The notes beneath the pieces are model-generated. The model was not told the DNA's origin, did no database searches, and saw only the letters and a program-made list of their open reading frames with translations. Below are positions 495-41,945 of a stretch of 64,000 nucleotides of DNA, piece after piece. This stretch comes from an uncultured Syntrophaceae bacterium (GTDB lineage: Bacteria > Desulfobacterota > Syntrophia > Syntrophales > UBA6807). Within the stretch, counting starts at the first letter, position 1. Each line of letters opens with the position of its first letter. Both the position numbers and the translations under genes were made by a program. The stretch is from the NCBI GenBank assembly GCA_964523565.1, contig CAZGAK010000001.1, positions 3,867 to 67,866 of the forward strand, read 5' to 3'.

Positions 495-504
495 CATGAC
501 ATAC

Positions 505-709
505 AGATTCTTTATCCGTAACATGTACGGTTTTTGCGCAGATGTTGGCGACAGCTTATGCGAACAAGACAAAGAATTTTGGTTGCAGCTTTGCTGCTCT
601 GGAAACGTAGGGCAGGGCTTTAGCCCTGCATAAAGCCCAATGCAAGGCTAAAGCCTTGCCCTACATGCAAGAGGTCAACACCTCTTTGGCTGTAGCTTTA
701 CCGCCTTAG
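505..709 (+). repeat. Modular intergenic repeat family 1, alpha core (degenerate left arm, alpha core, right arm)
   Basis: AGATTCTTTAT...TTTTTGCGCAGATGTTGG, then the alpha core including a 58 nt palindrome (607-664), then ...GCTTTACCGCCTTAG. It ends 6 nt before the hemA ATG. Confidence 0.85.
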
Positions 710-14335: not shown

Positions 14336-14469
14336 TTAGATTCTTTATTCTCAACAACCGAGTCCTTTGAGCAGATATTGAAAGGCGAAAGGCTGAAGGC
14401 TAAGGGCTGAAGGAAAAACCTTTAGCCCTTGGTCCTCATTGCTCAGTCCTTGCGGCTTTGCCGCATTAG
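14336..14469 (+). repeat. Modular repeat family 1, beta core
   Basis: TTAGATTCTTTATTCTCAACAAC..., a heptad-built beta core, then GCGGCTTTGCCGCATTAG. It is nearly identical to the reverse complement of 25251-25398. Confidence 0.9.
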
Positions 14470-15139: not shown

Positions 15140-15664
15140 TTACTGATACGTTTTTTTCTTGAGAGAAAGAATCAAAGTAAATTTGGCCACCGGCTCATCC
15201 CCGAACTTGCCGGGAACTGTTGCAATCACATGAATGGGAGATTCCACTCGTTCCGTTGACTCGGTGGCAGCGTTCACCAGGTCGGAGATAACGCGACCGT
15301 CGTTGCAGATAAAATGAACATCTCCTTCTGCGCGCTTCAGGAATTCTGCTGTGAGTGTTTTGAAAATCAGAGAAATATTTTCAGAACTTTCCTGTATAAG
15401 TTTCATGGCCATGAGTCCACCGGCACAATCAGCTCCCATCGCGAGAGCTCCGAAGTACATTGACCTCAGATGATTCATTGTCCTTCGACGTAAAGGAATC
15501 TTGACCACCACTCTTTCCCTGGACAATTCAATGACAGATGGTCGGACAAACAATAATAAAGGAATCTTTGTTAAGCCAAAAAATCGCAGCGTGAGGGTTG
15601 CTAATACGTTTTCCGGGATAAATCTGTCCAGCCGTTTCAACAAGTAAGTTCCTTTTCTAACCAT
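15140..15664 (-). CDS. Hotdog-fold thioesterase-like protein (DUF4442/PaaI-like)
   Basis: 174 aa. The NHLRSMYFGALAMGADCAGG segment resembles the hotdog thioesterase core. Confidence 0.45.
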   Translation of the reverse strand: MVRKGTYLLKRLDRFIPENVLATLTLRFFGLTKIPLLLFVRPSVIELSRERVVVKIPLRRRTMNHLRSMYFGALAMGADCAGGLMAMKLIQESSENISLIFKTLTAEFLKRAEGDVHFICNDGRVISDLVNAATESTERVESPIHVIATVPGKFGDEPVAKFTLILSLKKKTYQ

Positions 15665-15861
15665 TTGTCAGTATTACTCCTTAAATGTTTTTTGCTTTCT
15701 CAAGTTCCGGAATAAGCCATATCTTTTCCCGGCGGAATTTGCAAATGTTAAACTTTACGATTATTTTATTAAATGGTCTTTGTCGATATCTTTGATCACG
15801 CCTAATGCACCTGACATCTGACATTGGCGAGATACCGACCATCTGTACAAAAGTCTCACAA

Positions 15862-15901
15862 ACAAAAAGGGGGGAGTCAAGACATCCGTCTGATTCCCCC
15901 C
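15862..15901 (-). terminator. Rho-independent terminator after the formamidase gene
   Basis: GGGGGGAGTCA (15869-15879) pairs with TGATTCCCCCC (15891-15901) with one mismatch, followed on the minus strand by a T-run. It lies 19 nt past the stop codon. Confidence 0.7.
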
Positions 15902-15919
15902 TTCCTCTTGTTTTTCCTG

Positions 15920-17221
15920 TTACCCAATGCCATACTGTTCACGGACAAAGGGAAGGAGACCGGCACTTTCCAAATTCTTCAATGGTGCCAGGAAGGTAAC
16001 ATGAATAACTCCCGGTAGACGTCCGATTTCAACAGCACCGGTAATTGTAGCACGGTTCTTCACTTCCGGGACGCTCATCCCTAAAAGAGTGGCGGCTCGT
16101 TGCAATCCGTTTTCTGTGGCTTTATTTAAATCAGCCCCTGTTCCGATGACAGAGATGGGAGCGGATTCCTCTAACGTGGAGAGTCCCCACTTTTGTGCCA
16201 GAATCTGGGCACGTCCCCTTTCCTCGGAACTAAAAGGCCTGGCCAGATAAGGAAGATCCTCAACAAGAGGGAAAAGTATCGGTCCCTGAAGCTCTCGTTC
16301 CTTTACCACATTAACCTGTACGGTGATAATGCCGGCTACGTCCATGGTGTGGCCGGCAATCTCTCCGTCTCCCTGGAGTGCGTGCATGTCGCCCATATAC
16401 ACACCGCCGCCCGGCACTTTCACGGGAGCCAGCACAATCGTTCCCGGTCTGACTGCGTCGATATCCATGTGTCCGTCGGTGCGCGATTCGAGTTGCTCGG
16501 CGGTGAGTGCATAATCATGAGGTGCGCCGACAAGAAATACGCCGAAATCACCGGCGTTGTGAGAATCCGGCATTCTCACGGCAGGCGTTGTCCCGAGTTG
16601 ACCCATGAAGGGTCTCATTCTGGATATAGTTCCGACGAGATCGTGCGGGGCAAAAAGAAGAATTGAATGCTGTGTGCAATTTTCTGAAAGCCTGGCATAA
16701 TTTTTTGCATCACGTGCGATTCGCTCTGCGGCATCTTTGTCCATGGTTACACCGAGGGTTCGGCCCTCGTCAAACACGACAGTATAACCGTGCTCGAATT
16801 GAAATGGCGTCACAGGAGTACCGCAATTAGAACAGCGCACCGCATCCTGGCCGATTCCCTCAACAATAGTTTCGGGGTACATTGTGCCGCACCCGGGACA
16901 TTTCTTGGCCACAAATGGATCACCAAGGAAATGTCCATCAACCATGCGGTCCTGTCCGGAAGCAGTGGCAACTGATGTGACATTTATCTCCCGGATTCTG
17001 ATGGCGATGGCGTCACCAGGTTCTGCATTTTCAACATAAACCGGCTGAGTTACCTCATGTCCACCACGGAGATGAGGAGTGATCATCGGCCCCCAGCAGC
17101 CAGGCATGGTATTTGCCTCGATGAGGCCGCCATCCCGGACCGGACCGAGCATGGGCTCTCCGGGGTCTAAAATACCGTTTGTGTACGTTGAAACAATAAC
17201 CTTTTTATTATTTTCAGCCAT
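15920..17221 (-). CDS. Acetamidase/formamidase family amidohydrolase
   Basis: 433 aa with FmdA/AmdA-like blocks (TMPGCWGPMITP, GDAIAIRI, GGGVYMGDMHALQGDGEIAGH). Confidence 0.8.
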   Translation of the reverse strand: MAENNKKVIVSTYTNGILDPGEPMLGPVRDGGLIEANTMPGCWGPMITPHLRGGHEVTQPVYVENAEPGDAIAIRIREINVTSVATASGQDRMVDGHFLGDPFVAKKCPGCGTMYPETIVEGIGQDAVRCSNCGTPVTPFQFEHGYTVVFDEGRTLGVTMDKDAAERIARDAKNYARLSENCTQHSILLFAPHDLVGTISRMRPFMGQLGTTPAVRMPDSHNAGDFGVFLVGAPHDYALTAEQLESRTDGHMDIDAVRPGTIVLAPVKVPGGGVYMGDMHALQGDGEIAGHTMDVAGIITVQVNVVKERELQGPILFPLVEDLPYLARPFSSEERGRAQILAQKWGLSTLEESAPISVIGTGADLNKATENGLQRAATLLGMSVPEVKNRATITGAVEIGRLPGVIHVTFLAPLKNLESAGLLPFVREQYGIG

Positions 17222-17406
17222 GTCTTTTACCTCCTATCTTATTTTTGCGGTGACAGGTTTCAAAATATCATTCGTTGAGGACGATATTCAATTTCCGGCC
17301 TTCTATAGAGATTGGAGAATGAAAGCGACTAGTAAAATGAGATCAAAATTTATGTACGGGATACTAACACGAAAAAAGTTTTCAGTCAGCATCTTATTGT
17401 ATTTGA

Positions 17407-18072: not shown

Positions 18073-18165
18073 AATTCAAATTCTTGCGTATCCTTATCCA
18101 GAGTATAGCCCTTTAAAGCGAAACGATTCTCAACAGCTCTCCGGATTGATTCATTAATCAGTTTA

Positions 18166-18438
18166 TCAGACAAATTCGATGGTCAGATCGGGGAATTCCT
18201 TTTGAAATTCTGCCTCAAGATTTTTTAGAATGGTAGCTGAAATAACCATGGCAATGCCGGCACAGGTCATACATCCGGGGCTGTGACTGACAAAATCGGT
18301 AAAGATGTATAACAAATTTTCTTTTTCACTGTAACGAACCTTTTTTACAAGCCCCAGCCTGGCCACAGAAAGGTCGCTTTCAGGGTCTTTTACCCTGTCC
18401 AGAATCGAATCGATCTTTTTTATCATTTCGGCTTCCAT
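18166..18438 (-). CDS. DUF59 (MIP18/SufT-like) small protein
   Basis: The VKDPESDLSVARLGLVKKV motif resembles the DUF59 core. 90 aa. Confidence 0.45.
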   Translation of the reverse strand: MEAEMIKKIDSILDRVKDPESDLSVARLGLVKKVRYSEKENLLYIFTDFVSHSPGCMTCAGIAMVISATILKNLEAEFQKEFPDLTIEFV

Positions 18439-21841: not shown

Positions 21842-22044
21842 TTAGAGTCTTTATTCACAACAACTGCGTTTTTTGCGCAGATGCTGGCGGAAAATAAATC
21901 CGAAATTCGAATATCGAAATACGAAACAAATTCGAATATCAAATAACAAAATTTCGAAACAGTTTTGGACATTCGAGTTTAGGGTTTTGATATTGTTTCG
22001 AATTTCGTACTTCGGATTTCGAATTTGCAGCTTTGCTGCCTTAG
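21842..22044 (+). repeat. Modular repeat family 1, gamma core (flip orientation)
   Basis: TTAGAGTCTTTATTCACAACAACTGCGTTTTTTGCGCAGATG, then an AT-rich palindromic gamma core, then GCAGCTTTGCTGCCTTAG. Confidence 0.9.
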
Positions 22045-23399: not shown

Positions 23400-25254
23400 T
23401 AAATTAGCCCAATATGACCCTGGTGAATTCAGGAGGAAGTTTAGGGTATTGATATGGTTGGTACTCTTTGCATTTGTTTTTCTCGTTGCCAAAATGTGGT
23501 ATCTCCAGGTAATAAAGGGAGAGGAATTAATTCAGCGATCCAAGAACAACAGGATTCGCCTTCAGGAAACAAAACCATTAAGAGGCTTGATTCTGGATAC
23601 GCGCGGGAAAGTCCTGGTAGATAATCAACCGTCCTTTGACATTTCAATCATTCCAGAAGTAGCAAAAAATGTGGAAGGTGTTATCAAAAGGCTGGCCTGT
23701 GAATATGGCGAGAATGAAATAGAACTCTATAACAATTTTTCATCATCAAAGCACAGGAAACCTTTCGTTCCGATTAAGCTTGAAAAAAATATTGGAAGAG
23801 ATAAGTTAGCCGTAGTTGAGACAAACTCTTTGGATTTGCCCGGCGTCGTCGTTGATGTTGTGCCTGTGAGAAAGTATATTTATGGTGAGATGATGGCTCA
23901 TATCCTTGGTTATGTGAGTGAGATTAGTACTGTTGACCTGGGCAGGGATTTGTACGGTGAATACAAGCCCGGTGATATTGTCGGTAAATCAGGCATTGAA
24001 AAATGGGTAGACAGATATTTAAAGGGTGAAAGCGGGGGAGAACAGATAGAGGTAAATGTTAACGGTAGAAAATTGAATGTCCTGGGGAAGGTTGAATCCG
24101 TTCCCGGATACAATGTCATGCTAACCATCGATGCCGATCTTCAAAGGATTTGCTGGGATGCCTTTCAGGAAAAGGCGGGCACCGTGATCATGATGGACCC
24201 TCGAGACGGTTCTATACTGGCCATGATAAATAAACCTTCTTTTGATCCAAATCTTTTTAACCGGGGCATATCAGGCGAGGATTGGAACAAACTTTTAAAT
24301 AACCCACTCAGTCCCATGCAGAATAAGGCTATTTCCGGGCAATACCCCCCCGGTTCCACATATAAATTGATCGTGGCTGCTGCCGCTCTTGAAGAGGGCC
24401 TGGTAACCCCTCACACAAGGTATCTTTGTGATGGTACGTATAAGATGGGTAACCGGACATTCAGGTGTTGGAAAAAGTATGGCCATGGTAATGTCAGTTT
24501 ACACCGTGCTATTGTAGAGTCCTGTGACGTATATTTTTACAATCTGGGAGCACAAATCGGCGTTGATAAATTGGCACAGTATGCACGGAAGTTTGGGTTA
24601 GGATCGAAAGCGGGTGTGGAGCTTTCCGGAGAGAAAAGCGGCTTGATACCAACAAAGGAGTGGAAACTGAAAAGGTTGAATAAACACTGGCAGATGGGCG
24701 AGACGATTTCATTATCTATAGGTCAGGGGTTTATTTTGTTGACTCCTTTACAACTTATTAGAACCTACTGTGCCCTGGCGAATGATGGTGTTCTATATAA
24801 ACCGAGACTTATAAAAAGAATTATGACGGAACAGGGGCAGATCATTAAGGAATTCCCTCCTGAAAAGGAGCCTCTTATACCTGTCAGTAAAAAAAATATT
24901 GAGATATTAAACCTTGCATTATGGGGAGCTGTAAACGAAGATCATGGTACGGGACTGGCTGTGAGAAGAAGGGGGAAGGATGTCTGTGGGAAGACAGGTA
25001 CTGCGCAAGTCATAGCAATGCCTCAGGATAAGAAAGATAGTGATATAGAAAACATTCCGTATAAATATAGAGATCACGCCCTTTTCGTTTGTTTCGCGCC
25101 GTATAAAGATCCTGAAGTAGCAGTAGTAGTGATTGTAGAACATGGAGGTCATGGGGGATCTGCTGCCGCTCCCATTTCGAGAAAGATTATTGACGGGTAT
25201 TTTGAAATCAAAGAGAGGAGAAACAGCCTCCAGTCTCGTGAAGTACAAGGCTAA
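23383..25254 (+). CDS. mrdA: Penicillin-binding protein 2 (elongasome transpeptidase)
   Basis: Contains STYK (GSTYKLI), SCD-type (SxN-equivalent) and KTGTAQ motifs. I prefer ATG 23383 (MTEKNSKL...) to the track start at 23326. The stop codon TAA at 25252-25254 lies inside a repeat arm. Confidence 0.9.
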   Translation: MTEKNSKLAQYDPGEFRRKFRVLIWLVLFAFVFLVAKMWYLQVIKGEELIQRSKNNRIRLQETKPLRGLILDTRGKVLVDNQPSFDISIIPEVAKNVEGVIKRLACEYGENEIELYNNFSSSKHRKPFVPIKLEKNIGRDKLAVVETNSLDLPGVVVDVVPVRKYIYGEMMAHILGYVSEISTVDLGRDLYGEYKPGDIVGKSGIEKWVDRYLKGESGGEQIEVNVNGRKLNVLGKVESVPGYNVMLTIDADLQRICWDAFQEKAGTVIMMDPRDGSILAMINKPSFDPNLFNRGISGEDWNKLLNNPLSPMQNKAISGQYPPGSTYKLIVAAAALEEGLVTPHTRYLCDGTYKMGNRTFRCWKKYGHGNVSLHRAIVESCDVYFYNLGAQIGVDKLAQYARKFGLGSKAGVELSGEKSGLIPTKEWKLKRLNKHWQMGETISLSIGQGFILLTPLQLIRTYCALANDGVLYKPRLIKRIMTEQGQIIKEFPPEKEPLIPVSKKNIEILNLALWGAVNEDHGTGLAVRRRGKDVCGKTGTAQVIAMPQDKKDSDIENIPYKYRDHALFVCFAPYKDPEVAVVVIVEHGGHGGSAAAPISRKIIDGYFEIKERRNSLQSREVQG

Positions 25255-25398
25255 GGCGGCAAAGCCGCAAGGGCTGAGCAATGAGCAATGAGCAATGAGG
25301 ACCAAGGGCTAAAGGTTTTTCCTTCAGCCCTTAGCCTTCAGCCTTTCGCCTTTCAATATCTGCGCAAAGAACGCGGTTGTTGAGAATAGAGATTCTAA
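25251..25398 (-). repeat. Modular repeat family 1, beta core, inverted orientation
   Basis: CTAAGGCGGCAAAGCCGC...CTGCGCAAAGAACGCGGTTGTTGAGAATAGAGATTCTAA. It contains the mrdA stop codon. Confidence 0.9.
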
Positions 25399-25434
25399 TA
25401 AGTACCTTAATTGTAAAGTTCTTGCAAAAATGGC

Positions 25435-25573
25435 AAAAGAATTTGGCTGTAACTTTGCAGACTTGGAAACGTAGGGCAGGGCTTTAGCCCTGCATAAAGC
25501 CCAATGCAAGGCTAAAGCCTTGCCCTACATGCAAGAGGTCAGCACCTCTTTGGTTACGGATTTGCCGCCTTAG
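25435..25573 (+). repeat. Modular repeat family 1, alpha core, left arm missing
   Basis: Carries the alpha core with a 58 nt palindrome (25471-25528) identical to that at 607-664, plus the right arm ...GGATTTGCCGCCTTAG. It ends 10 nt before the rodA ATG. Confidence 0.85.
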
Positions 25574-25583
25574 GTAATATAAA

Positions 25584-26693
25584 ATGAAAATAGATCGCAG
25601 GTTGTTTGTAAATTTTGATTGGATACCTCTCGTTCTGGTGCTGTCAATAAGTTGTATTGGACTTTTGAACCTGTACAGTACAAATTATAACCTGGCTCAA
25701 ATAGGCGGTAAACCGCTTTATGTGAAGCAGATTTACTGGATTCTGATTGGCCTCGCGTTGATGGTTGTCTCCGCAAGTATAGATTATCGTTTTATTATCA
25801 GGTATGGTTACGTTATTTACTTTATTTCTTTGTTATTCCTTTTTTTGGTTTTCGTGAAGGGGAATATAACTCACGGTTCGCAAAGGTGGCTGGTCTTATG
25901 GGGATTTTCTTTCCAGCCGTCTGAATTGATGAAGTTGACAATTATTATTGCTTTGACAAAGTATATTGCCGACAATAAAATTGGCGAGAGTTATCATATA
26001 AAAAGCCTTGCAATTCCTTTTATCATAGTAGCCATTCCCTGTTTGCTTATAATTAATCAGCCCGATCTTGGCACGGCCCTTTTTTTATTTATCCTGTTTT
26101 TTTCTGTGATCCTTTTTGTCGGTGTCAACAGGAAGGCGCTTATTCTTTTTGCCACAAGCGGTATTCTTCTGATTCCAATATGCTGGTTTTTTATAAAAGA
26201 TTATCAAAGGGAGAGAATCCTGACCTTTTTAAACCCCGAGAGAGATCCTCTCGGTTCCGGGTATCATATTATCCAGTCCATAATCGCTATTGGATCGGGA
26301 GGTATTTTGGGGAAAGGGTTTTTAAAGGGCACGCAAAGTCAGTTAAAGTTTTTGCCTGAGCAGCAGACTGATTTTGTGTTTTCCGTTTTTGCCGAGGAGT
26401 GGGGTTTTGTGGGTGCGGTAATTCTGATATTTATGTTCCTTGCACTATTATTGTGGGGTTTTAAGATTGCCCGCAATTCAAGAGATTTGGCAGGGACCTT
26501 GATTGCCTTCGGCGTAACCATGTTAGTCTTTTGGGGTGTCTTTATCAACATCGGTATGGTTCTCGGAACTCTTCCTGTCGTGGGCATCCCCCTTCCCTTT
26601 TTGAGCTATGGAGGTTCTTCTATGGTAGTTTTGATGATGGGGGTAGGTTTGTTGATTAATGTAAGTATGCGAAGGTTCATGCTTCAACCGTAA
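25584..26693 (+). CDS. rodA: Peptidoglycan glycosyltransferase RodA (SEDS family)
   Basis: 369 aa SEDS protein (QPSELMKL, PDLGTAL, LPEQQTDFVFSVFAEEWGF, LPFLSYGGSS), downstream of mrdA. Confidence 0.9.
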   Translation: MKIDRRLFVNFDWIPLVLVLSISCIGLLNLYSTNYNLAQIGGKPLYVKQIYWILIGLALMVVSASIDYRFIIRYGYVIYFISLLFLFLVFVKGNITHGSQRWLVLWGFSFQPSELMKLTIIIALTKYIADNKIGESYHIKSLAIPFIIVAIPCLLIINQPDLGTALFLFILFFSVILFVGVNRKALILFATSGILLIPICWFFIKDYQRERILTFLNPERDPLGSGYHIIQSIIAIGSGGILGKGFLKGTQSQLKFLPEQQTDFVFSVFAEEWGFVGAVILIFMFLALLLWGFKIARNSRDLAGTLIAFGVTMLVFWGVFINIGMVLGTLPVVGIPLPFLSYGGSSMVVLMMGVGLLINVSMRRFMLQP

Positions 26694-31512: not shown

Positions 31513-31529
31513 TTAAATTCTTAATTCTT

Positions 31530-31682
31530 AAATTTGATGGTTTCGTAAAAAGTCAAAAACTCGCTAATATGTCATTCCCGCGAAAGCGGGAATCCAGTAA
31601 TTACACGCAGTTATAGATTCCCGATCAGATCGGGAATGACAAAACGGCAAAAACTCCGACTTTTTACGAACTTGTCAAATTT
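31530..31682 (+). mobile_element. 153 bp MITE-like structured repeat (family 3), complete copy with terminal inverted repeats
   Basis: The TIRs are AAATTTGATGGTTTCGTAAAAAGTC... and ...GACTTTTTACGAACTTGTCAAATTT. Internal hairpins are ATTCCCGC-GAAA-GCGGGAAT and ATTCCCGAT-CAG-ATCGGGAAT. A second, truncated copy lies at 49010-49122. Confidence 0.8.
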
Positions 31683-31781
31683 GAGTTTTTAATTAAAAAT
31701 TGAGAACATAAAATTCAAAATCCATTACCGATGGATTTTATAAATATTTGATTATAAAAAAGTACAATAAATACTCTTTAA

Positions 31782-33223: not shown

Positions 33224-33634
33224 ATGGCTGACGAATTGATGGTGGAAATTGCCACACCTGAAAAAATGGTGTTCAGTGATAAAGTTGAAGAGGTGACGAT
33301 TCCAGGGGTTGATGGTGAGTTTGGTGTGCTGTTCGGTCATGCTCCCCTTTTGACTTTAGTTAATATTGGTGAGTTGAATTATACCAGGGATAATAAAAAG
33401 ACACATTATGCCATTGGAGCAGGATATGTGGAGGTAACCTATCAGAAAGTAACATTACTTCTTGATAGCGCTGAGAGATCTGATGAGATTAATAAGGAGA
33501 GCGCAAGAAGAGAAAAAGATGCGGCAGAGGCGAAGCTCTCAAAGATGAACAAGGAAGAAGATAAGGGTTATAAGGAGGCGAAAGACAATCTGAGTCTGGC
33601 AGAGGCGAGGCTCAAGGTTGCAGAGAAGACATAG
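33224..33634 (+). CDS. atpC: F-type ATP synthase subunit epsilon
   Basis: 136 aa. An N-terminal beta-sandwich (VEIATPEKMVFSDKVEEVTIPGVDGEFGVL) plus a C-terminal helical hairpin. Confidence 0.9.
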   Translation: MADELMVEIATPEKMVFSDKVEEVTIPGVDGEFGVLFGHAPLLTLVNIGELNYTRDNKKTHYAIGAGYVEVTYQKVTLLLDSAERSDEINKESARREKDAAEAKLSKMNKEEDKGYKEAKDNLSLAEARLKVAEKT

Positions 33635-33685
33635 CGGATTTTCCTCAGGAAAGAAAGACTCTGTTTTGGAAAAAATCGAATGATT

Positions 33686-33722
33686 CAAGCCAGGGAGGTT
33701 TCACTTTCCTGGCTTGTTTTTT
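33686..33722 (+). terminator. Rho-independent terminator after atpC
   Basis: A 9 bp stem, CAAGCCAGG (33686-33694) with CCTGGCTTG (33708-33716), followed by TTTTTT. Confidence 0.75.
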
Positions 33723-33737
33723 AGTTGTATAGACATT

Positions 33738-33931
33738 ATATTCTTTATTCTCGACAACTGCGTTTTTTGCGCAGATGTTGGCGGAAAATAAATCCGAAGT
33801 ACGAAATTCGAAACAATATCAAAATCTTAAACTCGAATGTCCAAAACTGTTTCGAAAATTTGTTATTTGACTTCGACGTGAGCTCAGTCGAACGATATTC
33901 GGATTTCGGATTTGCGGCTTTGCCGCTTTAG
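33738..33931 (+). repeat. Modular repeat family 1, gamma core (flop orientation)
   Basis: The left arm ATTCTTTATTCTCGACAACTGCGTTTTTTGCGCAGATG and right arm GCGGCTTTGCCGCTTTAG are in the same orientation as 21842-22044. However, the 79 nt central segment 33790-33868 is the reverse complement of 21941-22019. Confidence 0.9.
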
Positions 33932-33941
33932 GAGTTTAATC

Positions 33942-35420
33942 ATGGTGCGAGCAAAGGGGTTCTTGTCAGGTCTTTTTATAGTTGCTTTGTTTTGTACTCT
34001 ATTTTTGGATCCAGGTGTTGCTTACTGTGCCGCCGAAGAGGCCTCACATCATGGAGGTAATATAGGAGAAATATTATCGGCCTGGACAGTGATTCCTTTT
34101 GTCGGTATTTTACTGTCCATAGCTTTGCTTCCTTTGCTTATGCCTCACTTCTGGCATAATCACTTCGGTAAGATTTCGGCATTCTGGGCGTTGCTGTTTG
34201 CGATTCCGTTTCTCTATGTTTATCATTATGTGGCATTATACGAAATTCTGCACATCTATCTAATTGATTATTTCCCGTTTATCATTCTTCTCTGGGGCCT
34301 CTTTACCGTTGCGGGAGGAATCGTGGTCGGTGGTTCAATAAAGGGGACCCCGGTTGTCAACACGATTATGTTATTGATAGGAACGATATTGGCCTCCTGG
34401 GTAGGAACGACGGGAGCAGCCATGGTTATGATACGTCCTCTTTTAAGGGCAAACAAGAACAGGGTAAACAAAGTACATGTCGTGTGCTTTTTTATATTTC
34501 TTGTGGCCAATATCGGGGGTTCGCTCACACCGCTTGGCGATCCGCCGCTATTTCTTGGATTTCTCCATAATGTTCCGTTTTTCTGGGTTACGACAGCTAT
34601 CCTCCCACATATGTTGTTAACGTCGTTGATACTGTTGGTTCTGTTTTTTGCCGTTGACACATTTTACTATAATAAAGAGAAAGATGAGTTGAAAAAGATA
34701 GGGCCAATGGAACAAGTTCCCATCAGGATTCAGGGTGTGCATAATTTCATTTTTCTGGCGGGTATTGTCGTCCTCGTTCTCATAAGCGGTTATTGGAAAG
34801 CGGGACATTTCAGTGTAATGGGTATTCACATGACGTATCAGAATCTCCTGCGGGATGTTGGAATTATCATTATGGGAACACTCTCTCTCCTGTTAACCTC
34901 CAAGAGTCTTCGGGAAGAAAACGAATTCAGCTGGTTTCCGATAATGGAAGTGGCCAAACTTTTTGCCGGCATTTTTATGACGATTATTCCTTGCCTGGCA
35001 ATCCTGAAAGCTGGAAGTAACGGTGCCATGGCCGGTCTTGTAGCTGTCGTGAAAGAGCCGTTTCATTATTTCTGGGTAGCCGGCACACTCTCCTCTTTCC
35101 TTGATAATGCGCCTACCTATCTCACCTTCTTTAACCTTGCTCTGGGCAAACTCGGCTTAACAGAGGCAATGGTTCCGGCTGCGCTGGCGGCAAAAGCGGC
35201 GACGGCAAATCCTGTGTTTATCAGTTATCTGAAAGCAATATCAGCAGGTGCGGTCTTTATGGGCGCCAATACCTATATCGGCAATGCGCCGAATTTCATG
35301 GTTAAATCTATTGCTGAAGAAGCGGGAATTAATATGCCGAGTTTTTTCGGTTATATGTTTAAATATTCAATTCCTATTCTTATTCCCATATTTGTTGTTG
35401 TAACTTTTGTATTCTTTTAG
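33942..35420 (+). CDS. Ion transporter of the ArsB/NhaD permease superfamily (putative Na+/H+ antiporter)
   Basis: Polytopic membrane protein of about 490 aa resembling NhaD/citrate-transporter-type permeases. I prefer ATG 33942, 10 nt after AGGAG; the track start at 33912 lies inside a repeat. The stop codon TAG at 35418-35420 lies in a repeat arm. Confidence 0.55.
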   Translation: MVRAKGFLSGLFIVALFCTLFLDPGVAYCAAEEASHHGGNIGEILSAWTVIPFVGILLSIALLPLLMPHFWHNHFGKISAFWALLFAIPFLYVYHYVALYEILHIYLIDYFPFIILLWGLFTVAGGIVVGGSIKGTPVVNTIMLLIGTILASWVGTTGAAMVMIRPLLRANKNRVNKVHVVCFFIFLVANIGGSLTPLGDPPLFLGFLHNVPFFWVTTAILPHMLLTSLILLVLFFAVDTFYYNKEKDELKKIGPMEQVPIRIQGVHNFIFLAGIVVLVLISGYWKAGHFSVMGIHMTYQNLLRDVGIIIMGTLSLLLTSKSLREENEFSWFPIMEVAKLFAGIFMTIIPCLAILKAGSNGAMAGLVAVVKEPFHYFWVAGTLSSFLDNAPTYLTFFNLALGKLGLTEAMVPAALAAKAATANPVFISYLKAISAGAVFMGANTYIGNAPNFMVKSIAEEAGINMPSFFGYMFKYSIPILIPIFVVVTFVFF

Positions 35421-35624
35421 ATTCTTTATTCTCAACAACTGCGTTTTTTGCGCAGATGTTGGTATCAGCTTATGCGAATAAGACAAAGAATTCTGGTTGC
35501 ACCTTTGCTGCCTTGGAAACGTAGGGCAGGGCTTTAGCCCTGCGTAAAGCCCAATGCAAGGCTAAAGCCTTGCCCTACATGCAAGAGGCCAACACCTCTT
35601 TGGTTGCGGCTTTGCCGCCTCAGG
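35417..35624 (+). repeat. Modular repeat family 1, alpha core, full length
   Basis: TTAGATTCTTTATTCTCAACAACTGCGTTTTTTGCGCAGATG, then the alpha core (palindrome 35521-35578, one substitution), then GCGGCTTTGCCGCCTCAG. Confidence 0.9.
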
Positions 35625-35648
35625 GATATAATGACGGGAGAATGAGAA

Positions 35649-36230
35649 ATGACAAAATCATATTATGAAGTAATATTACAAGGATCGTTTGGTCTCATCA
35701 AGGGTTTTGTTCTGGGCTTTTTAGAAGGAAGCGGAATTAAAGGGGAGGCGATCTTTGGCCGGGAGCATCATGTGGAAAACGAAAGCAAGTTTGGCCAGCT
35801 CATGCGCTTGATTCATGTCAAGGGTAATAAAGTTCATGTTATTGTTGGTGCCGGGATCCATAATTTACTGAAAGATGCAGTGGGTAACAGACAAGATGGA
35901 CTTGACATAAAGATATTGTCTGTCAGAGAAATTACGGATGCCCATTTTGATTTTATCTATAAAGCCTTTGCAAAAGAATTTGGTGATAAGTTGAAAGAAC
36001 TTTTTAAAAATCTGCCTGAGGGACTTGAACTTGGGCCAGGCTACGAACCTAAAGAAACAATAACGCCGGAGGGGAAGGGGATAGAAGCCTATGCCCCGCT
36101 ACATGAATATGAAATAAAAGCCAATGGAAGGATATACGGTCCCATAAAAGCTGTAATCAATTTTTATGGCGAGGTGGAGCATAATCCATTGGTTGAATTG
36201 GGAGACATAAAGCTCCAATATAAGAATTAG
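35649..36230 (+). CDS. Hypothetical soluble protein (orphan, 193 aa)
   Basis: A clean ORF with a plausible SD (GGGAGAATGAGAAATG). I recognise no family or motif. Confidence 0.35.
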   Translation: MTKSYYEVILQGSFGLIKGFVLGFLEGSGIKGEAIFGREHHVENESKFGQLMRLIHVKGNKVHVIVGAGIHNLLKDAVGNRQDGLDIKILSVREITDAHFDFIYKAFAKEFGDKLKELFKNLPEGLELGPGYEPKETITPEGKGIEAYAPLHEYEIKANGRIYGPIKAVINFYGEVEHNPLVELGDIKLQYKN

Positions 36231-36266
36231 GTATTAAGGATTATAGTCGAAGATCCGCTTGATCTC

Positions 36267-36427
36267 CTAAGGCGGCAAAGCCGCAAGGACTGAGCAACGA
36301 GCAATGAGGACTGAGAACTAAAGGCTAAAGGTTTTTCCTTGATCCTTTGTCCTTGTACCTTGCACCTTTTCACTGCTGACACTAAAATCTGCGCAAAAAA
36401 TGCAGTTGTTGAGAATAAAGAATCTAA
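36267..36427 (-). repeat. Modular repeat family 1, delta core, inverted orientation, full length
   Basis: CTAAGGCGGCAAAGCCGC..., then a heptad-built delta core, then ...CTGCGCAAAAAATGCAGTTGTTGAGAATAAAGAATCTAA. It contains the stop codon of the speD-speE fusion. Confidence 0.9.
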
Positions 36428-37512
36428 TCCTTTAACCTTGAGATATGTGCCGAAGCAAATATCCACGGCGTGCAGAAAGACTGGATATTCGTTTTTGAGA
36501 ATTTAACATTAATGAAAGCCCGGCTGAGGATTTTTTCTGACATAATAAGTGTATCCTTGTCATATTCGGAACAGCACTGAGACGTTATCATGCCATTGGG
36601 ATTGAGGCAGTCTTTAATTTTTGCGAAGAGATCTTCCAGGTACAGCTCGCGATCCATATTGATAAACGTTTCAGGATGCATGGTTAAATCATAGATAATT
36701 GCATCAAAACGCCTGTCAGTATTTAAGAAATTATTTACATCATCGTTTATAATCTCTACCCGCGGATCATCGAACGCATCATGACAGATACACTGTAGAT
36801 ATTTCCTGGAAGCGTTTATAACTTCTTCGTCTATATCGATGAGTGTAACCTTGCCGGGGTTGTATTTCAAAAGTTCATAAAGGACCCCCCCGTCTCCACC
36901 GCCCAGGATTGCTACATTTTCTAAAGGATTTTTTGCTTCAACAAGAGGTGATACCATGCTCTGGTTGTAAAGATGAGCATCATATTCGGCAATCTGCAGA
37001 TCATTATTCAAAAACAGCAGCTTACCGAAAATTTCATTTTCTATGATGTCTATCTGCTGATATTTTGACATCTTGCTGAAAATTGCTTTTTCGATGTGGT
37101 ACCGTATGTCGAATCCGACCGTATCGGAAACGTCGGTTATCCAATTGGTTTCTGACACTTCGATTGGGTTTCCCCGGATAATTTCGGCTGTCCTCGTTGT
37201 AGTCGGTTTAAATTTATCCTTCAGATAATGTAACAGATTATTCGTTACCTCCTTGTCGGGAGAACAGGTATATATATCCACAGAAGCGTGACGCGCTTCG
37301 GGGTATGTATGGATGGCAACATGGGATTCACTGATGACTGCTATGGATGTGACACCGATGGGATCGTAGCAATGACTGTTGATAGCTACAAGAGATAGTC
37401 CGCATTCTCTGATACCATTACGCAGAATGTTTTCGATGGCCTCTTTATCGTTTAAAATATCTCTGGAACAGTTGTGAAATTCCGCTACGATTTGCATCCC
37501 GATTGGCTTCAT
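36424..37512 (-). CDS. speD-speE: Fusion of S-adenosylmethionine decarboxylase proenzyme and an aminopropyltransferase (spermidine synthase-like)
   Basis: The N-terminal roughly 115 aa is class-1 AdoMetDC with the self-processing site context VISESHVAIHTYPE. The C-terminal roughly 240 aa has the spermidine synthase fold motifs YQQIDIIE, ILGGGDGGVLYELLKY, IDIDEEVI and DPRVEIINDD. Confidence 0.8.
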   Translation of the reverse strand: MKPIGMQIVAEFHNCSRDILNDKEAIENILRNGIRECGLSLVAINSHCYDPIGVTSIAVISESHVAIHTYPEARHASVDIYTCSPDKEVTNNLLHYLKDKFKPTTTRTAEIIRGNPIEVSETNWITDVSDTVGFDIRYHIEKAIFSKMSKYQQIDIIENEIFGKLLFLNNDLQIAEYDAHLYNQSMVSPLVEAKNPLENVAILGGGDGGVLYELLKYNPGKVTLIDIDEEVINASRKYLQCICHDAFDDPRVEIINDDVNNFLNTDRRFDAIIYDLTMHPETFINMDRELYLEDLFAKIKDCLNPNGMITSQCCSEYDKDTLIMSEKILSRAFINVKFSKTNIQSFCTPWIFASAHISRLKD

Positions 37513-37525
37513 GGCAAAATAAACT

Positions 37526-37658
37526 TTCTTTATAAAGGTACAAGGTACAAGGACAAAGGATCAAGGACAAAGGACAAAGGATCAAGGAAAAACCTTTAGC
37601 CTTTAGTTCTCAGTCCTCATTGCTCGTTGCTCAGCCCTTTGCGGCTTTGCCGCATTAG
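37526..37658 (+). repeat. Modular repeat family 1, delta core, left arm reduced to TTCTTTAT
   Basis: AGGTACA AGGTACA AGGACAA AGGATCA AGGACAA AGGACAA AGGATCA AGG..., ending GCGGCTTTGCCGCATTAG. Confidence 0.85.
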
Positions 37659-37693
37659 TCCCTTAAGCGAGAAATTAAATTTTCTTGTAACAG

Positions 37694-37810
37694 CTCAAAA
37701 AACAGGGGCATCATAAAAGGCTCACGCCTGAATTCCTTATTTGGAGTTTACCCGTAAGGGTTATACACTTATTTGGAGTTTACCCGTAAGGGTTTTACCG
37801 TGATTTATTG
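37694..37810 (+). repeat. Repeat family 2 (117 bp) with an internal 32 bp tandem duplication
   Basis: Same sequence as 3128-3212 with a few substitutions. CTTATTTGGAGTTTACCCGTAAGGGTT(A/T)TAC(A/C) is present twice in tandem. Confidence 0.8.
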
Positions 37811-37826
37811 GGCTGATTCATTTTCT

Positions 37827-37945
37827 TTCTTTATAGAGGTACAAGGTACAAGGACAAAGGATCAAGGAAAAACCTTCAGCCTTTAGCCTTTAGTTCTCAG
37901 TCCTCATTGCTCATTGCTCAGCCCTTTGCGGCTTTGCCGCCTCAG
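37827..37945 (+). repeat. Modular repeat family 1, delta core, left arm reduced to TTCTTTAT
   Basis: Same as 37526-37658 but with three fewer AGGNNCA heptads and one extra CCTTTAG unit. It ends GCGGCTTTGCCGCCTCAG. Confidence 0.85.
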
Positions 37946-37957
37946 GTGTCACTATAT

Positions 37958-37990
37958 AAAAAAAAGAGTATTCCATGTCAAGGGGAATAC
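37958..37990 (-). terminator. Rho-independent terminator downstream of the CDP-alcohol phosphatidyltransferase gene
   Basis: On the minus strand, GTATTCC and GGAATAC form a stem (plus-strand 37968-37974 and 37984-37990) followed by a T8 run. Confidence 0.6.
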
Positions 37991-38044
37991 AGAGATTATA
38001 GAAATAATACATTGATTCAGGCGGCCTGCAAAGGTCTCAAGCTG

Positions 38045-38674
38045 TTATTCCGTTTGAGCAAGGTCCTTTTTCCCTTCGAGAAGCCTGTGGATGACCGTTA
38101 TATTTGTTAAAACGGCCAGCACTATCAACGTCCCCATAAAGATACAGTCAGGACATTCGGGAAAATATCTTCCAATGGGCGCGTTCAGGAGCGAACCGGC
38201 AGAAACCAAAATTAATCTTTCGGGTCGCTGCATCAAGCCGATAACTCTTATACTTCCCAGTGATTCGGCACGGGCCTTTACGTAACTGACCATGACCGAA
38301 CCCAGCAAGGCCAGCATAACCACATAAAACATCCAGCTGTTTTGATAGTAAAAGAGAAGCCCGAAAAATACGAAAAACTCGGCATAACGATCCAGCGTTG
38401 AATCCAGTAAGGCGCCGAACCTGGTTGATTGTCCTGTAAGACGGGCAATGGAACCATCCATTGTATCCGCTATCCCTGATAGCAAGAGCAAAATTCCACC
38501 CATGAAAATGGCCCCGAAGGCATAAAATAATGCCGAAATCAGAGAAAGGCATAATGAAAAGAGGGTGATTGCGTTGGGTGAAACACCTCTGTTAACCAGC
38601 GGTTTCATCCATCTTTCCATAAGAGAATAATACCTCTTAATCATCTGGTGACGCGCTTCAGTAAAATTCATCAT
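38045..38674 (-). CDS. CDP-alcohol phosphatidyltransferase family protein
   Basis: Signature DTMDGSIARLTGQSTRFGALLDSTLDRYAE matches D-x2-DG-x2-AR...G-x3-D-x3-D. The protein is polytopic. Confidence 0.8.
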   Translation of the reverse strand: MMNFTEARHQMIKRYYSLMERWMKPLVNRGVSPNAITLFSLCLSLISALFYAFGAIFMGGILLLLSGIADTMDGSIARLTGQSTRFGALLDSTLDRYAEFFVFFGLLFYYQNSWMFYVVMLALLGSVMVSYVKARAESLGSIRVIGLMQRPERLILVSAGSLLNAPIGRYFPECPDCIFMGTLIVLAVLTNITVIHRLLEGKKDLAQTE

Positions 38675-39342: not shown

Positions 39343-40245
39343 GTGAAGGGACTGCCGGGACCTTGGATAGGCGCTATGGAAGCAACAATATTCACCGGAT
39401 GGGTGTATGACTTTTTAAAGCCGCACGCCATTGTCCTGAAGGTGGCTCATCCTGCGATGCTGAAGGCCATAACAGCCGCCAAGAAAAAGAACGATCGTGC
39501 CGATGCCGAGAAAATAGCCGATCTGTTACGGGTGAATCTTCTGCCTGAATGCCACATGCTTTCAGAAGAGATTCGTGAACTGCGACGGATATTACGGTAT
39601 CGCAACCATATTGTTCGGACGGCAGTTAAGATGCAGAACAAGATGTCGGGTCTGCTCATGGAAGTTGGTGTCAGCTACAGCAAGAAACGCTTGCACGGCA
39701 AGAAATACTTTCGTGAACTTCTAGAACGAGTCGATGAAATTCCCCCTTCCGTCAAGGAGCTTCTTCAGCTGAGTCGTTCAAGCTACGAGATGTTTCGCTC
39801 TTTCCAGAAGCGGCTTGTTGCAACGCTTCGCACCGACAGCCTGATACGTGATCGGGTACATCGTCTCATGACCATCCCCGGTGTAGGAGAGATAACGGCA
39901 CTGACCTGGGTATTGGAGATCGGCGATCCCGAACTATTATCATCCATTCGTAAGGCAATCAGCTACTGCGGGCTGTGCAGCGCACAAAAAGAATCGGCGG
40001 GCAAGGAGCAGCGAGGCCCCATCTCCAAGAAACGGAACAAACACCTGCAAACCATACTCATTGAAGCCGCAAAGCTTGCACCATACTGGAACGAGCAACT
40101 GGCCATTGTACATGAGCGGGAATCGAAGAAAGGAAACAAAAACAGGGCAACCCTTGCCGTTGCGAGAAAGCTTGTGGCTTACATGCTGGCTGTTGACAGG
40201 AAAGGGAGCGATTTCAAGCTTCCCTCAGAAACGCAAGCAGCCTGA
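39343..40245 (+). pseudogene. IS110-family (DEDD) transposase, 5'-truncated remnant
   Basis: Contains the second half of the DEDD domain (GAMEATIFTGW, KKNDRADAEKIADLL) and the Transposase_20 region (IPGVGEITALTWVLEIGD, SAGKEQRGPISKKRNKHL). The N-terminal GIDxxK block is absent. The frame stays open upstream to 39205 without a start or the missing motif. Confidence 0.7.
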
Positions 40246-41623: not shown

Positions 41624-41945
41624 AAATGCTATTCCGATTACTGCTTTCATTTTGTAAACGTATCCGACAGTTTTTTGCGATTTTTATGAAAATTTGCGGG
41701 GCATAAAAAGATAACTGCTTATATTAATTGACAGAACAGCCCAAAAAAGGCCGTAACAAAAAGTGTCGGCATGCTTTACAGCTTTCGGCTTGTTTTACAA
41801 ATCGAACATTAAAACTCTCATTGTTCTTTAAAAAAAAAGAAAAAAAGGGAAAAAAGGATTGAAGGATTGGAGGCTAAATCATAAATAAGTCGAAAGTGGA
41901 CCTCTTTCCCCCATTCTTTTCCAGTAGGGCCCGTTCCCCGAACGA

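What the first reader, a model, noticed from the sequence alone, without database searches (positions are those of the whole stretch)
25251..25586. Repeat arm termini supply stop codons and sit 6-10 nt from start codons of essential genes; TTAG marks both boundaries
**Stop codons inside arm termini.**
- The mrdA TAA (25252-25254) lies inside CTAAGG of the inverted right arm.
- The permease TAG (35418-35420) lies inside the TTAG of the left arm.
- The speD-speE TAG (36424-36426, minus strand) lies inside a left-arm TTAG.

**Right arms pointing at start codons.**
- 6 nt before the hemA ATG (709 versus 716)
- 10 nt before the rodA ATG (25573 versus 25584)
- 10 nt before the permease ATG (33931 versus 33942, where TTAG plus GAG creates the AGGAG Shine-Dalgarno)
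- 24 nt before ORF 35649

**Boundary tetranucleotide.** TTAG is present at 5 of 7 recognisable left boundaries and 8 of 10 right boundaries. The two other right boundaries read TCAG.

**Possible explanations.**
- Insertion is targeted to TTAG/CTAA, which naturally overlaps stop codons. It could be a YTAR-type target duplication as in IS5-like elements, or a fixed cleavage tetranucleotide as in IS200/IS605-type elements.
- The elements form the functional 5' UTR and translation initiation region of the downstream genes.
Basis: partly seen in the sequence, partly recalled or inferred. Interest (0 to 1): 0.6.

Follow-up and report, generated by a model that had tools for sequence, protein, structure and literature searches.

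The report
TTAG-targeting hairpin-ended mobile repeats at gene boundaries
The repeats between these genes are small non-coding mobile elements that insert right after the four bases TTAG and carry their own TTAG at the far end, so they can land in stop codons and ribosome-binding sites without breaking them; this is an undescribed family of a familiar kind, not a new gene-control device.

Summary
Every stop and start coordinate checks out, except that ORF 35649 lies 25 nt, not 24, from its arm. TTAG marks 5/7 left and 8/10 right boundaries in the window. In related metagenome contigs it marks 46/75 left and 54/62 right ends.

The repeats are 92-278 nt mosaic elements from an uncultured Syntrophales lineage. 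They have no terminal inverted repeats, a hairpin near each end, and a variable hairpin-rich centre.

Three element-free orthologous sites each hold a single tetranucleotide where the window has TTAG-element-TTAG:
- mreB-mreC: ATTAG|AATATA
- atpC-permease: GTAG|GAGTTT...ATG
- permease stop: TTTTAA|GGATATA

Variant left tetranucleotides do not co-vary with the right one, and the left end varies more. This fits an IS200/IS605-style or PATE-style rule: insertion 3' of a TTAG-like target, with an element-borne TTAG at the right end. It does not fit an IS5-like duplication.

Stop-codon overlap is about 3-fold enriched. Proximity to start codons is not enriched: unoccupied TTAG sites sit at the same distances, and the AGGAG ribosome-binding site exists in relatives that lack the element.

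Removing both elements from the mrdA-rodA spacer leaves an inferred 14-nt junction.

The mobilising enzyme was not found. The Y1 transposase in the window has different ends.

The parts
25251..25398 (-). Complete type-B element. Right arm 25251-25270, heptamer-repeat hairpin centre, left arm 25354-25398. The CTAA at 25251-25254 is the element's own right-end TTAG and now supplies the mrdA stop (TAA 25252-25254). The CTAA at 25395-25398 is the inferred original target.
   Evidence: (I1, I19)
25399..25402 (+). TAAG, a TTAG-variant target tetranucleotide of the second element. Other copies with the same left end are preceded by TTAG.
   Evidence: L133, L157 and L176 have TTAG; the window has TAAG
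25403..25573 (+). Second element. It has an alternative left end (TACCTTAATTGTAAAGTTC), a degenerate internal arm, a long type-A hairpin module and a right arm at 25554-25573 ending in TTAG.
25574..25586 (+). Native flank GTAATATAAA plus the rodA ATG (25584-25586). The flank is the same in the sister species, behind a different element.
503..709 (+). Type-A element between the cytochrome c assembly gene and hemA. Left tetranucleotide ACAG, right TTAG, 6 nt before the hemA ATG.
14336..14469 (+). Type-B element between two minus-strand genes, so antisense to both.
21842..22044 (+). Type-C element between mreB and mreC. The sister-species contig L137 has the empty site ATTAG|AATATA.
33736..33931 (+). 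Type-C element between atpC and the permease gene. Left tetranucleotide TTAT, right TTAG|GAG. Relatives have the empty site GTAG|GAGTTTGTAGTCATG.
35417..35623 (+). Type-A element inserted directly after the permease stop codon. Left TTAG contains the stop, right TCAG. Relatives have the empty site TTTTAA|GGATATAC.
36267..36427 (-). Type-B element. Its left TTAG contains the speD-speE stop codon.
37513..37658 (+). Type-B element with the left-arm hairpin deleted. It abuts the speD-speE start and replaces the GGAGG ribosome-binding site seen in relatives.
37815..37945 (+). Second left-arm-deleted type-B element; right end TCAG.

Best explanation
**What they are.** The repeats are a family of small (92-278 nt), non-coding, non-autonomous mobile elements of an uncultured Syntrophales lineage. 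Each has three parts:
- A left arm: 12 nt followed by an 11-bp hairpin, or an alternative left arm in a second subfamily.
- A variable centre built of long hairpins.
- A right arm: the 5-bp G+C hairpin GCGGC-TTT-GCCGC, then one variable base, then TTAG.

**How they insert.** They integrate immediately 3' of a TTAG-like tetranucleotide on one strand. ATAG, TTAA, TCAG and GTAG are tolerated, and a following G and a preceding A are preferred. They bring their own TTAG at the right end. The result is target-TTAG, then element, then element-TTAG, then the untouched flank, so the sequence context is regenerated on both sides.

**Why the boundaries look special.**
- TTAG contains TAG, its complement CTAA contains TAA, and TTAG|GAG is a ribosome-binding site.
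- The sites where insertion is both possible and harmless are therefore largely stop codons and ribosome-binding sites.
- When the target was the CTAA of a converging gene, as at mrdA, the gene now uses the element-borne copy as its stop.

**The mrdA-rodA spacer.** It holds two such elements inserted back to back into adjacent tetranucleotides. Removing them gives ...CAAGG CTAA TAAG GTAATATAAA ATG, a 14-nt junction.

**Shown versus inferred.**
- Shown: the boundaries, the empty sites, the asymmetry of the two tetranucleotides and the hairpins.
- Inferred: that the chemistry is single-strand, HUH/Y1-type as in IS200/IS605 and their PATE derivatives, supplied in trans by an enzyme not identified here.
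For: **Architecture and boundaries.**
- Arms and tetranucleotides in the window.
- Seventy-five further distinct copies show a sharp fall in conservation just outside TTAG.
- No inverted repeat exists between the ends (direct reading).
- The hairpins fold well: RNA z = -8.3 and DNA z = -6.1.
- The right-arm stem is kept by the compensatory variant GCAGC/GCTGC and by a different stem, CCAG/CTGG, in a second subfamily.

**Empty sites with a single tetranucleotide and no loss of flank.**
- mreB-mreC in L137.
- atpC-permease and the permease stop in L188, L191 and L193.

**Asymmetry of the two ends.**
- The left tetranucleotide varies more than the right. After collapsing orthologous sites, 48/55 right ends read TTAG; about 41/67 left ends do, a count I estimated from the tables (one search gives 46/75 uncollapsed).
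- Variant left ends (ATAG three times, TTAA three times, TCAG twice) pair with a right TTAG. Only one of about 20 variant pairs matches.
- Uncollapsed, ATAG left ends serve as the upstream gene's stop codon in 4 of 5 cases.

**The same rule across subfamilies and rearrangements.**
- A second subfamily with unrelated arms is also bounded by TTAG...TTAG.
- At the mreB-mreC site in L148, a type-B body is joined to the 3' half of a type-C element exactly at an internal TTAG.
- The sister species has a different element behind the identical rodA flank.

**Fit to published descriptions.**
- The geometry matches PATEs as described in PMC3119063: no inverted terminal repeats, near-terminal palindromes, no target duplication, a 4-5 bp targeting sequence at the 5' end, and a longer distance from end to palindrome at the 5' end.
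- It also matches the transposon-adjacent and transposon-encoded motif logic of IS200/IS605 in PMC10055086.
Against: - The two terminal hairpins are unlike each other. In the well-studied IS200/IS605 members the same transposase binds similar hairpins at both ends.
- No copy with a gene between the arms was found in 785 kb of related contigs.
- The only Y1 transposase in the window (42694-43665) has its own, different inverted repeats.
- Contigs carrying its closest homologues (81-85% identity) have no arms.
- No significant strand bias was seen: 38 against 27 by local GC skew, p = 0.21. The skew here follows gene direction, so the test is weak.
- 29 of 55 pairs are TTAG/TTAG, so a 4-bp duplication followed by uneven decay cannot be strictly excluded.
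- The empty-site comparisons for the permease region use relatives that differ by about 18% in protein sequence.
Confidence: 0.65

Rival explanations
1. The elements are ordinary MITEs moved by a DDE transposase of the IS5 type. That enzyme duplicates a 4-bp YTAR target, so both TTAGs are copies of the target.
For: - Empty sites have one tetranucleotide where filled sites have two.
- 29 of 55 pairs are identical TTAG/TTAG.
- TTAG fits the YTAR pattern (my own recollection of IS5 targets, not checked here).
Against: - There are no terminal inverted repeats at all.
- Variant tetranucleotides do not co-vary; only one of about 20 variant pairs matches.
- The left copy is more variable than the right.
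- The polarity is the same on one strand at both ends, and subterminal hairpins sit at unequal distances from the ends.
Confidence: 0.08
2. The elements are kept, or were recruited, as functional intercistronic RNA modules. They would supply stop codons, ribosome-binding sites or stabilising and regulating hairpins for the flanking genes, much as REP/BIME sequences stabilise upstream mRNA in E. coli. On this reading their position at gene boundaries reflects function rather than target choice.
For: - The elements lie inside operons (mreB-mreC, mrdA-rodA), with no promoter or terminator match in the mrdA-rodA spacer or in the arms scanned at 33600-38100, so they are probably transcribed.
- The folds are very stable.
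- In the mrdA-rodA spacer the two inverted right arms pair over 13 bp, bracketing the stop codon and the ribosome-binding region.
- The sister species also has arms at both ends of this spacer.
- At speD-speE the element has replaced the native GGAGG.
- Stop-codon overlap is enriched about 3-fold.
Against: - The ribosome-binding site and the stop codon exist at the same positions in relatives without elements.
- Distances to start codons match those of unoccupied TTAG sites.
- Both orientations occur relative to genes. On the left side, 28 elements abut the stop of a same-strand gene and 18 abut the start of an opposite-strand gene. On the right side, 27 precede a same-strand start and 21 abut an opposite-strand stop.
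- The centres are highly variable and are exchanged between copies at one site.
- The arm-to-arm helix is not reproduced in the sister species' spacer.
Confidence: 0.15
3. The elements are REP/REPIN-like sequences mobilised by the RAYT-like Y1 transposase encoded at 42694-43665 in the same window.
For: - The protein has a Y1_Tnp domain, and its best NCBIfam match is REP-associated tyrosine transposase.
- Homologues are labelled RayT by JGI.
- The right arm is a short G+C hairpin next to an xTAG tetranucleotide, as in REPs (my own recollection of REP structure).
- The gene lies 4.7 kb from the nearest arm.
Against: - The NCBIfam score of 62 bits is below the 80-bit cut-off.
- The gene is flanked by its own conserved inverted repeats, GGGGACGTWGTTGAC, which are conserved in homologues and found nowhere else in the loci.
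- No arms flank the gene.
- 48 kb around its closest homologues contain no arms.
- The elements are not inverted pairs of one REP, and both TTAGs are on the same strand.
Confidence: 0.1

Closest known systems
PATEs (palindrome-associated transposable elements), the non-autonomous derivatives of IS200/IS605 elements (PMC3119063, PMC10055086)
   Same: - Too short to encode a protein.
- No inverted terminal repeats.
- A palindrome near each end, with the 5' one further from its end than the 3' one.
- A 4-5 base targeting sequence at the 5' boundary and a conserved terminal oligonucleotide at the 3' boundary.
- No duplication beyond that.
- Many heterogeneous copies, and nested or composite copies.
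   Different: - The two terminal hairpins are unrelated in sequence and size.
- The target motif and the element-borne motif are the same (TTAG).
- The centre is a mosaic of interchangeable hairpin modules.
- No parent IS with a tnpA or tnpB gene and these ends has been found.
REP/BIME and REPIN sequences with their RAYT transposases
   Same: - Intergenic and very abundant.
- A short G+C hairpin next to a conserved xTAG tetranucleotide.
- Mosaic arrangement, as in BIMEs.
- Presence inside operons.
- A RayT-annotated gene lies in the same window.
   Different: - The units are not inverted pairs of one palindrome.
- The tetranucleotide is TTAG rather than GTAG, and it lies on the same strand at both ends.
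- The Y1 gene is not flanked by the arms and has its own different repeats.
IS5-family-derived MITEs with a YTAR target duplication
   Same: A TTAG tetranucleotide on both sides, and a single copy in empty sites.
   Different: - No terminal inverted repeats.
- The two tetranucleotides do not co-vary.
- The ends are asymmetric.
Chunjie MITE of Geobacter uraniireducens (cited in PMC10969869)
   Same: - A small element in a deltaproteobacterial lineage.
- Variable in size.
- Inserted within an operon without disrupting it.
   Different: Chunjie has conserved terminal inverted repeats and direct repeats; these elements have neither inverted repeats nor co-varying repeats.

Membership tests
PATE / IS200-IS605-type non-autonomous element | No terminal inverted repeats; too short to encode a transposase | tested here: met
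   Left end TTAGAGTCTTTATTC and the reverse complement of the right end, CTAAGGCGGCAAAGC, share nothing beyond the tetranucleotide. Lengths are 92-278 nt.
PATE / IS200-IS605-type non-autonomous element | A palindrome near each end, further from the end at the 5' side than at the 3' side | tested here: met
   The left hairpin starts 12 nt after TTAG. The right hairpin ends 1 nt before TTAG. The criterion is taken from PMC3119063.
PATE / IS200-IS605-type non-autonomous element | Insertion 3' of a fixed 4-5 base target without target duplication; a separate element-encoded motif at the right end | tested here: met
   Three empty sites hold a single tetranucleotide. Left and right variants do not co-vary, and the left end is more variable. 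Because target and element motif are both TTAG, a 4-bp duplication is disfavoured rather than excluded.
PATE / IS200-IS605-type non-autonomous element | Left and right hairpins similar to each other (bound by one TnpA) | tested here: not met
   The left hairpin has an 11-bp stem with a 7-nt loop (CAACAACTGCG...CGCAGATGTTG). The right hairpin has a 5-bp stem with a 3-nt loop (GCGGC TTT GCCGC).
PATE / IS200-IS605-type non-autonomous element | Ends shared with an autonomous IS encoding TnpA (Y1) and/or TnpB | tested here: not met
   No arm pair 400-4000 nt apart encloses a transposase-like gene in 785 kb. The one candidate interval holds a host gene on the other strand. The left-arm pattern has no match in viral contigs. 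The complete host genome was not available, so absence is not shown.
PATE / IS200-IS605-type non-autonomous element | Orientation bias relative to replication (insertion into the lagging-strand template) | tested here: inconclusive
   38 against 27 by flanking GC skew, p = 0.21. The skew tracks gene direction here.
REP/REPIN-RAYT system | Repeats are single palindromes or inverted pairs of one palindrome with a conserved adjacent tetranucleotide | tested here: not met
   The two arms are different sequences, and both TTAGs lie on the same strand. Only the right arm resembles a REP.
REP/REPIN-RAYT system | A RAYT gene flanked by the repeats it mobilises | tested here: not met
   The Y1 gene at 42694-43665 scores 62 bits against an 80-bit cut-off for REP_Tyr_transpos. 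It is flanked by GGGACGTNGTTGAC inverted repeats, not by arms.
IS5-type MITE with YTAR duplication | Terminal inverted repeats and identical direct repeats of the target | tested here: not met
   There are no inverted repeats. Only one of about 20 variant pairs is identical on both sides.
Known structured RNA family (Rfam) | Match to a curated covariance model | tested here: not met
   No match at gathering score in the 64 kb window. Only sub-threshold matches, mostly to eukaryotic microRNA models, at E up to 5 in 35380-38060.

The most novel reading that the evidence does not exclude
The arms may be the ends of a single-strand (HUH-type) transposon family, not yet described, whose target motif and element-encoded motif are both TTAG. 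This identity would let it occupy stop codons and ribosome-binding sites of essential operons seamlessly. The conserved, highly structured right-hand modules, such as the 110-nt type-A module plus right arm, would be guide-RNA scaffolds of the omega-RNA type. PMC10055086 says PATEs often encode such RNAs. The guide portion would be the flank, here the ribosome-binding site and first codons of hemA, rodA and the permease gene. A TnpB-like nuclease encoded elsewhere in the genome would use them in trans.
Probability: 0.1. Interest if true: 0.6.

Novelty: new member of a known kind. Interest (0 to 1): 0.33.

Why it matters
The result explains a pattern that looks designed: repeats that "supply" stop codons and sit a ribosome-binding distance from essential genes. 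The pattern is the by-product of a four-base insertion rule combined with an element end that regenerates that same motif.

Practical consequences:
- Annotators of Syntrophales and related metagenome-assembled genomes get precise boundaries for an abundant repeat family that breaks assemblies. Several contigs here end inside these elements.
- The elements should not be mistaken for regulatory leaders.

The family is also a natural test case. It shows how far TIR-less, hairpin-ended elements can colonise operon junctions such as mreB-mreC, mrdA-rodA and atpC-permease without polar effects. If the mobilising enzyme is found, it may show whether one enzyme can use two dissimilar end hairpins.

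Tried and rejected
1. **Rfam.** The whole window at gathering threshold and the 35380-38060 region at E up to 5 gave nothing meaningful.
2. **Promoter and terminator scans.** No sites in the arms and no excess over shuffles. I dropped my first impression of a -35/-10 pair spanning the right arm.
3. **The window's Y1 transposase as mobiliser.** Rejected: it has its own conserved inverted repeats, no arms flank it, and no arms lie near its close homologues.
4. **Search for an autonomous copy.** I looked for arm pairs 400-4000 nt apart in 785 kb. The only candidate, in L155, encloses an ordinary host gene of unknown family on the other strand.
5. **Viral-contig scan with the left-arm pattern.** No match.
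6. **Strand bias by GC skew.** Not significant, and confounded by gene direction.
7. **Flank-joining BLAST for empty sites among the metagenome loci.** One clean case was found. A second indel against the sister contig near 18.5 kb was too diverged to use.
8. **Arm-to-arm helix linking the mrdA stop and the rodA ribosome-binding site as a conserved coupling device.** It is present in the window but not reproduced in the sister species' spacer.
9. **Literature searches.** Searches for TTAG with IS605, and for Syntrophus repeats, found no description of this family.
10. **Integron attC, IS91, IS630, IS110 and Helitron-like models.** I considered these from memory and set them aside. The two TTAGs are direct, not inverted; the motif is present on both sides; and the flanking bases are A and G rather than TA or AT.

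Full report
**Source and gene context.** The window comes from an uncultured Syntrophales/Syntrophaceae population.
- Its RodA is 93% identical to that of a Syntrophaceae MAG and at most 69% identical to other Syntrophales.
- Identical genes occur on JGI, ENA and Logan metagenome contigs.

**Checking the observation.** A Hamming scan with the two arm consensus sequences found seven left arms and ten terminal right arms in the window.
- Left boundaries read TTAG five times, with one ACAG and one TTAT.
- Right boundaries read TTAG eight times and TCAG twice.
- The three stop codons lie inside terminal tetranucleotides: mrdA TAA at 25252-25254, permease TAG at 35418-35420, and speD-speE TAG on the minus strand at 36424-36426.
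- The gaps from right arm to ATG are 6, 10, 10 and 25 nt.

**Anatomy of the elements.**
- The left arm is TTAG, then 12 nt (AGTCTTTATTCA), then an 11-bp hairpin (CAACAACTGCG, loop TTTTTTG, CGCAGATGTTG).
- The centre is variable, and three centre types occur in this window.
  - Type A is a long, nearly perfect hairpin preceded by a degenerate internal arm.
  - Type B is a hairpin built of heptamer repeats such as AAGGNNN.
  - Type C is a long CGAAAT-rich hairpin.
- The right arm is TTGCGGCTTTGCCGC, one variable base, then TTAG.
- The two ends share no inverted repeat.
- A second subfamily has an unrelated left end (TCCCTTAATTGTAAAGTTC) and a different right hairpin (CCAGTTTATCTGG). It is again bounded by TTAG on both sides.
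- The single strands fold far better than shuffled sequences: z = -8.3 for the mrdA-rodA spacer as RNA and z = -6.1 for a type-A copy as DNA.
- The right stem survives through the compensatory variant GCAGC/GCTGC.

**A larger sample.** I scanned public metagenome contigs for a pattern inside the left hairpin only. The scan returned 88 stretches, containing 75 distinct left ends and 62 complete elements of 92-278 nt.

| End | TTAG | Other readings |
|---|---|---|
| Left (75) | 46 | ATAG 5, TTAA 5, TCAG 4, others |
| Right (62) | 54 | TCAG 3, others |

- Per-position conservation falls from 0.8-0.98 inside the tetranucleotides to background two bases outside them.
- The base after the right end is G in 70% of copies, against 18% after unoccupied TTAG.
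- The base before the left end is A in 55%, against 26%.

**Empty sites.** Three orthologous element-free sites were found.

| Site | Comparator | Empty site | Window |
|---|---|---|---|
| mreB-mreC | sister-species contig L137 | ...GATTAG\|AATATA... | ...GATTAG-element-TTAG\|AATATA... |
| atpC-permease | relatives with 81-82% permease identity and the same gene order | ...GTATAAAAGTAG\|GAGTTTGTAGTCATG | ...GTATAGACATTAT-element-TTAG\|GAGTTTAATCATG |
| permease stop | same relatives | TTCTTTTAA\|GGATATACTG | TTCTTTTAG-element-TCAG\|GGATATAATG |

- Each empty site holds one TTAG-like tetranucleotide, and the flank resumes without loss.
- The permease stop codon and its AGGAG ribosome-binding site are native, not gifts of the element.

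**Duplication, or target plus element-borne motif?**
- After collapsing orthologous sites, left variants pair with a right TTAG: ATAG three times, TTAA three times, TCAG twice, plus many singletons. Only one variant pair is identical on both sides.
- The left tetranucleotide varies more than the right. The right reads TTAG in 48 of 55 elements. The left reads TTAG in about 41 of 67, a count I estimated from the tables.
- Before collapsing, four of the five ATAG left ends are the stop codon of the upstream gene. They therefore look like native targets.
- With the lack of inverted repeats, this favours the rule known from IS200/IS605 elements and their PATE derivatives. That rule is insertion 3' of a transposon-adjacent motif, with a transposon-encoded motif at the right end (PMC10055086; PMC3119063).
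- It also explains mrdA. The original CTAA (TTAG on the minus strand) is now at 25395-25398, and the copy carried by the element at 25251-25254 serves as the stop.

**Other signs that TTAG is the breakpoint.**
- In L148, the mreB-mreC site holds a type-B body with its own right arm. It is joined to the 3' half of the type-C element exactly at an internal TTAG of the window's copy.
- The sister species has a different element behind the same rodA flank, GTAATATAAA.

**The mrdA-rodA spacer itself (the finding's coordinates).** It contains two elements.
- A complete type-B element on the minus strand at 25251-25398.
- A plus-strand element at 25403-25573 with the alternative left end. Its target is TAAG at 25399-25402.
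- Removing both gives ...CAA GGC TAA TAAGGTAATATAAA ATG. This is an inferred 14-nt junction with an AAGG ribosome-binding site.
- That reconstruction agrees with other Syntrophales, where mrdA and rodA overlap by ATGA or are separated by short spacers.

**Is the position at gene boundaries more than chance?**
- Stop codons: about 14 of about 55 independent elements have a boundary tetranucleotide that is the stop codon of a long ORF (hand-collapsed for orthologous sites). Stop-overlapping sites make up 8% of all TTAG/CTAA sites outside coding sequence. The enrichment is about 3-fold. One search ran the binomial test on the uncollapsed count of 19/62 and gave p = 3.5e-7.
- This fits purifying selection against insertions elsewhere, or the extended target preference. 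The gene calls behind it are crude.
- Start codons: 10 of 27 right ends lie 7-17 nt upstream of a start codon, while 36% of unoccupied TTAG sites upstream of genes do the same. There is no excess, because TTAG is common at that distance as TAGGAG or as the previous gene's stop.
- Orientation: elements occur in both orientations relative to their neighbours.

**The enzyme.** It was not identified.
- The window encodes a 323-aa Y1 (IS200-like) protein with a C-terminal helix-turn-helix at 42694-43665. Its best NCBIfam match is REP-associated tyrosine transposase, below the cut-off. JGI labels many homologues RayT.
- Its gene is flanked by its own inverted repeats, GGGGACGTWGTTGAC. These are conserved in homologues of 67-81% identity and absent elsewhere.
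- 48 kb around its closest homologues contain no arms.
- No protein-coding element bounded by the arms exists in the 785 kb examined.
- The dissimilar end hairpins are a genuine departure from the textbook IS200/IS605 picture.

**Function.**
- I found no promoter-like or terminator-like sites in the arms and no Rfam family.
- The elements inside operons are presumably transcribed, and their hairpins could affect mRNA stability as REP sequences do. Nothing here shows that.
- The 13-bp pairing between the two inverted right arms of the mrdA-rodA spacer has no counterpart in the sister species.
- At speD-speE, a left-arm-deleted element has replaced the GGAGG site present in relatives. Individual copies can therefore alter an initiation region.

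**Verdict.**
- Its first explanation is right in the IS200/IS605-like form and wrong in the IS5-like form.
- Its second explanation is not needed.
- I found no published description of this family.
- The family is best filed as PATE-like, with REP/BIME-like mosaic traits. Membership in the IS200/IS605 lineage remains unproven, because no parent element or enzyme was found and the end hairpins differ.

Noticed in passing
window 41943-42655 and 42656-43368: A perfect 713-bp tandem duplication copies the 3' two-thirds of the Y1 transposase gene, producing a truncated second ORF at 41981-42565. Other assemblies of the same locus (L007-L011) lack it, so it is either a strain variant or an assembly artefact.
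   Followed up: partly
window 42668-43733; L181, L183, L162: The Y1 (RayT-annotated) gene is a self-contained unit of about 1.1 kb, bounded by inverted repeats GGGGACGTWGTTGAC(AAGGTTGA) that are conserved across homologues. A distant homologue in L162 (9294-9962), bounded by AAAGGGGACGTTTC repeats, appears to lie within a sugar-nucleotide (GDP-mannose) dehydratase-like gene. Some contigs end exactly at the repeat.
   Followed up: partly
window 39343-40245: An IS110-family transposase gene lies between the repeat cluster and the Y1 gene. The match starts at profile position 50, so the gene may be 5'-truncated. Its ends and target were not examined.
   Followed up: no
window 31520-31720 and 49000-49123: A different repeat family looks like a classical MITE. 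It has inverted ends AAATTTGANGGTNTCGTAAAAAGTC and two GTCATTCCCGCGAAAGCGGGAATC-type hairpins. One copy is complete and one is partial.
   Followed up: partly
window 3122-3219 and 37688-37817: An 87-nt repeat (89% identical) contains the motif CTTATTTGGAGTTTACCCGTAAGGGTTTTACC, once at 3122-3219 and in tandem at 37688-37817. One copy lies just upstream of the siroheme synthase/HemD-like gene. The other lies between two TTAG elements with no gene downstream. Its nature is unknown.
   Followed up: no
window 21939-22019 versus 33790-33870: The central 81 nt of the two type-C elements are reverse complements of each other (96%). The loop of the long hairpin has therefore flipped between copies. L123 shares one orientation and most other copies share the other.
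   Followed up: partly
window 37510-37545 versus L188, L191, L193: The strong ribosome-binding site of speD-speE in relatives (GGAGGTGATTGTGCC-ATG) is absent in the window. Element sequence starts 8 nt upstream of the ATG. The window's SpeDE also has a C-terminal tail five residues longer, ending in the element-side TTAG.
   Followed up: partly
L105, L127, L130 (metagenome copies): Several copies have a shortened right arm, TTGCGGCTTTAG or TTGCCGCTTTAG, as if half of the hairpin were deleted between short repeats. They keep the terminal TTAG followed by G or A.
   Followed up: no
window 15249-17390 and 18085-18384 versus L137: Relative to the sister-species contig, the window has an extra 2.1 kb spanning an unannotated 433-aa ORF and part of the DUF4442 gene, and an extra 300 nt. 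The sister has about 370 nt extra, containing a TTAG element, near window position 18590.
   Followed up: partly
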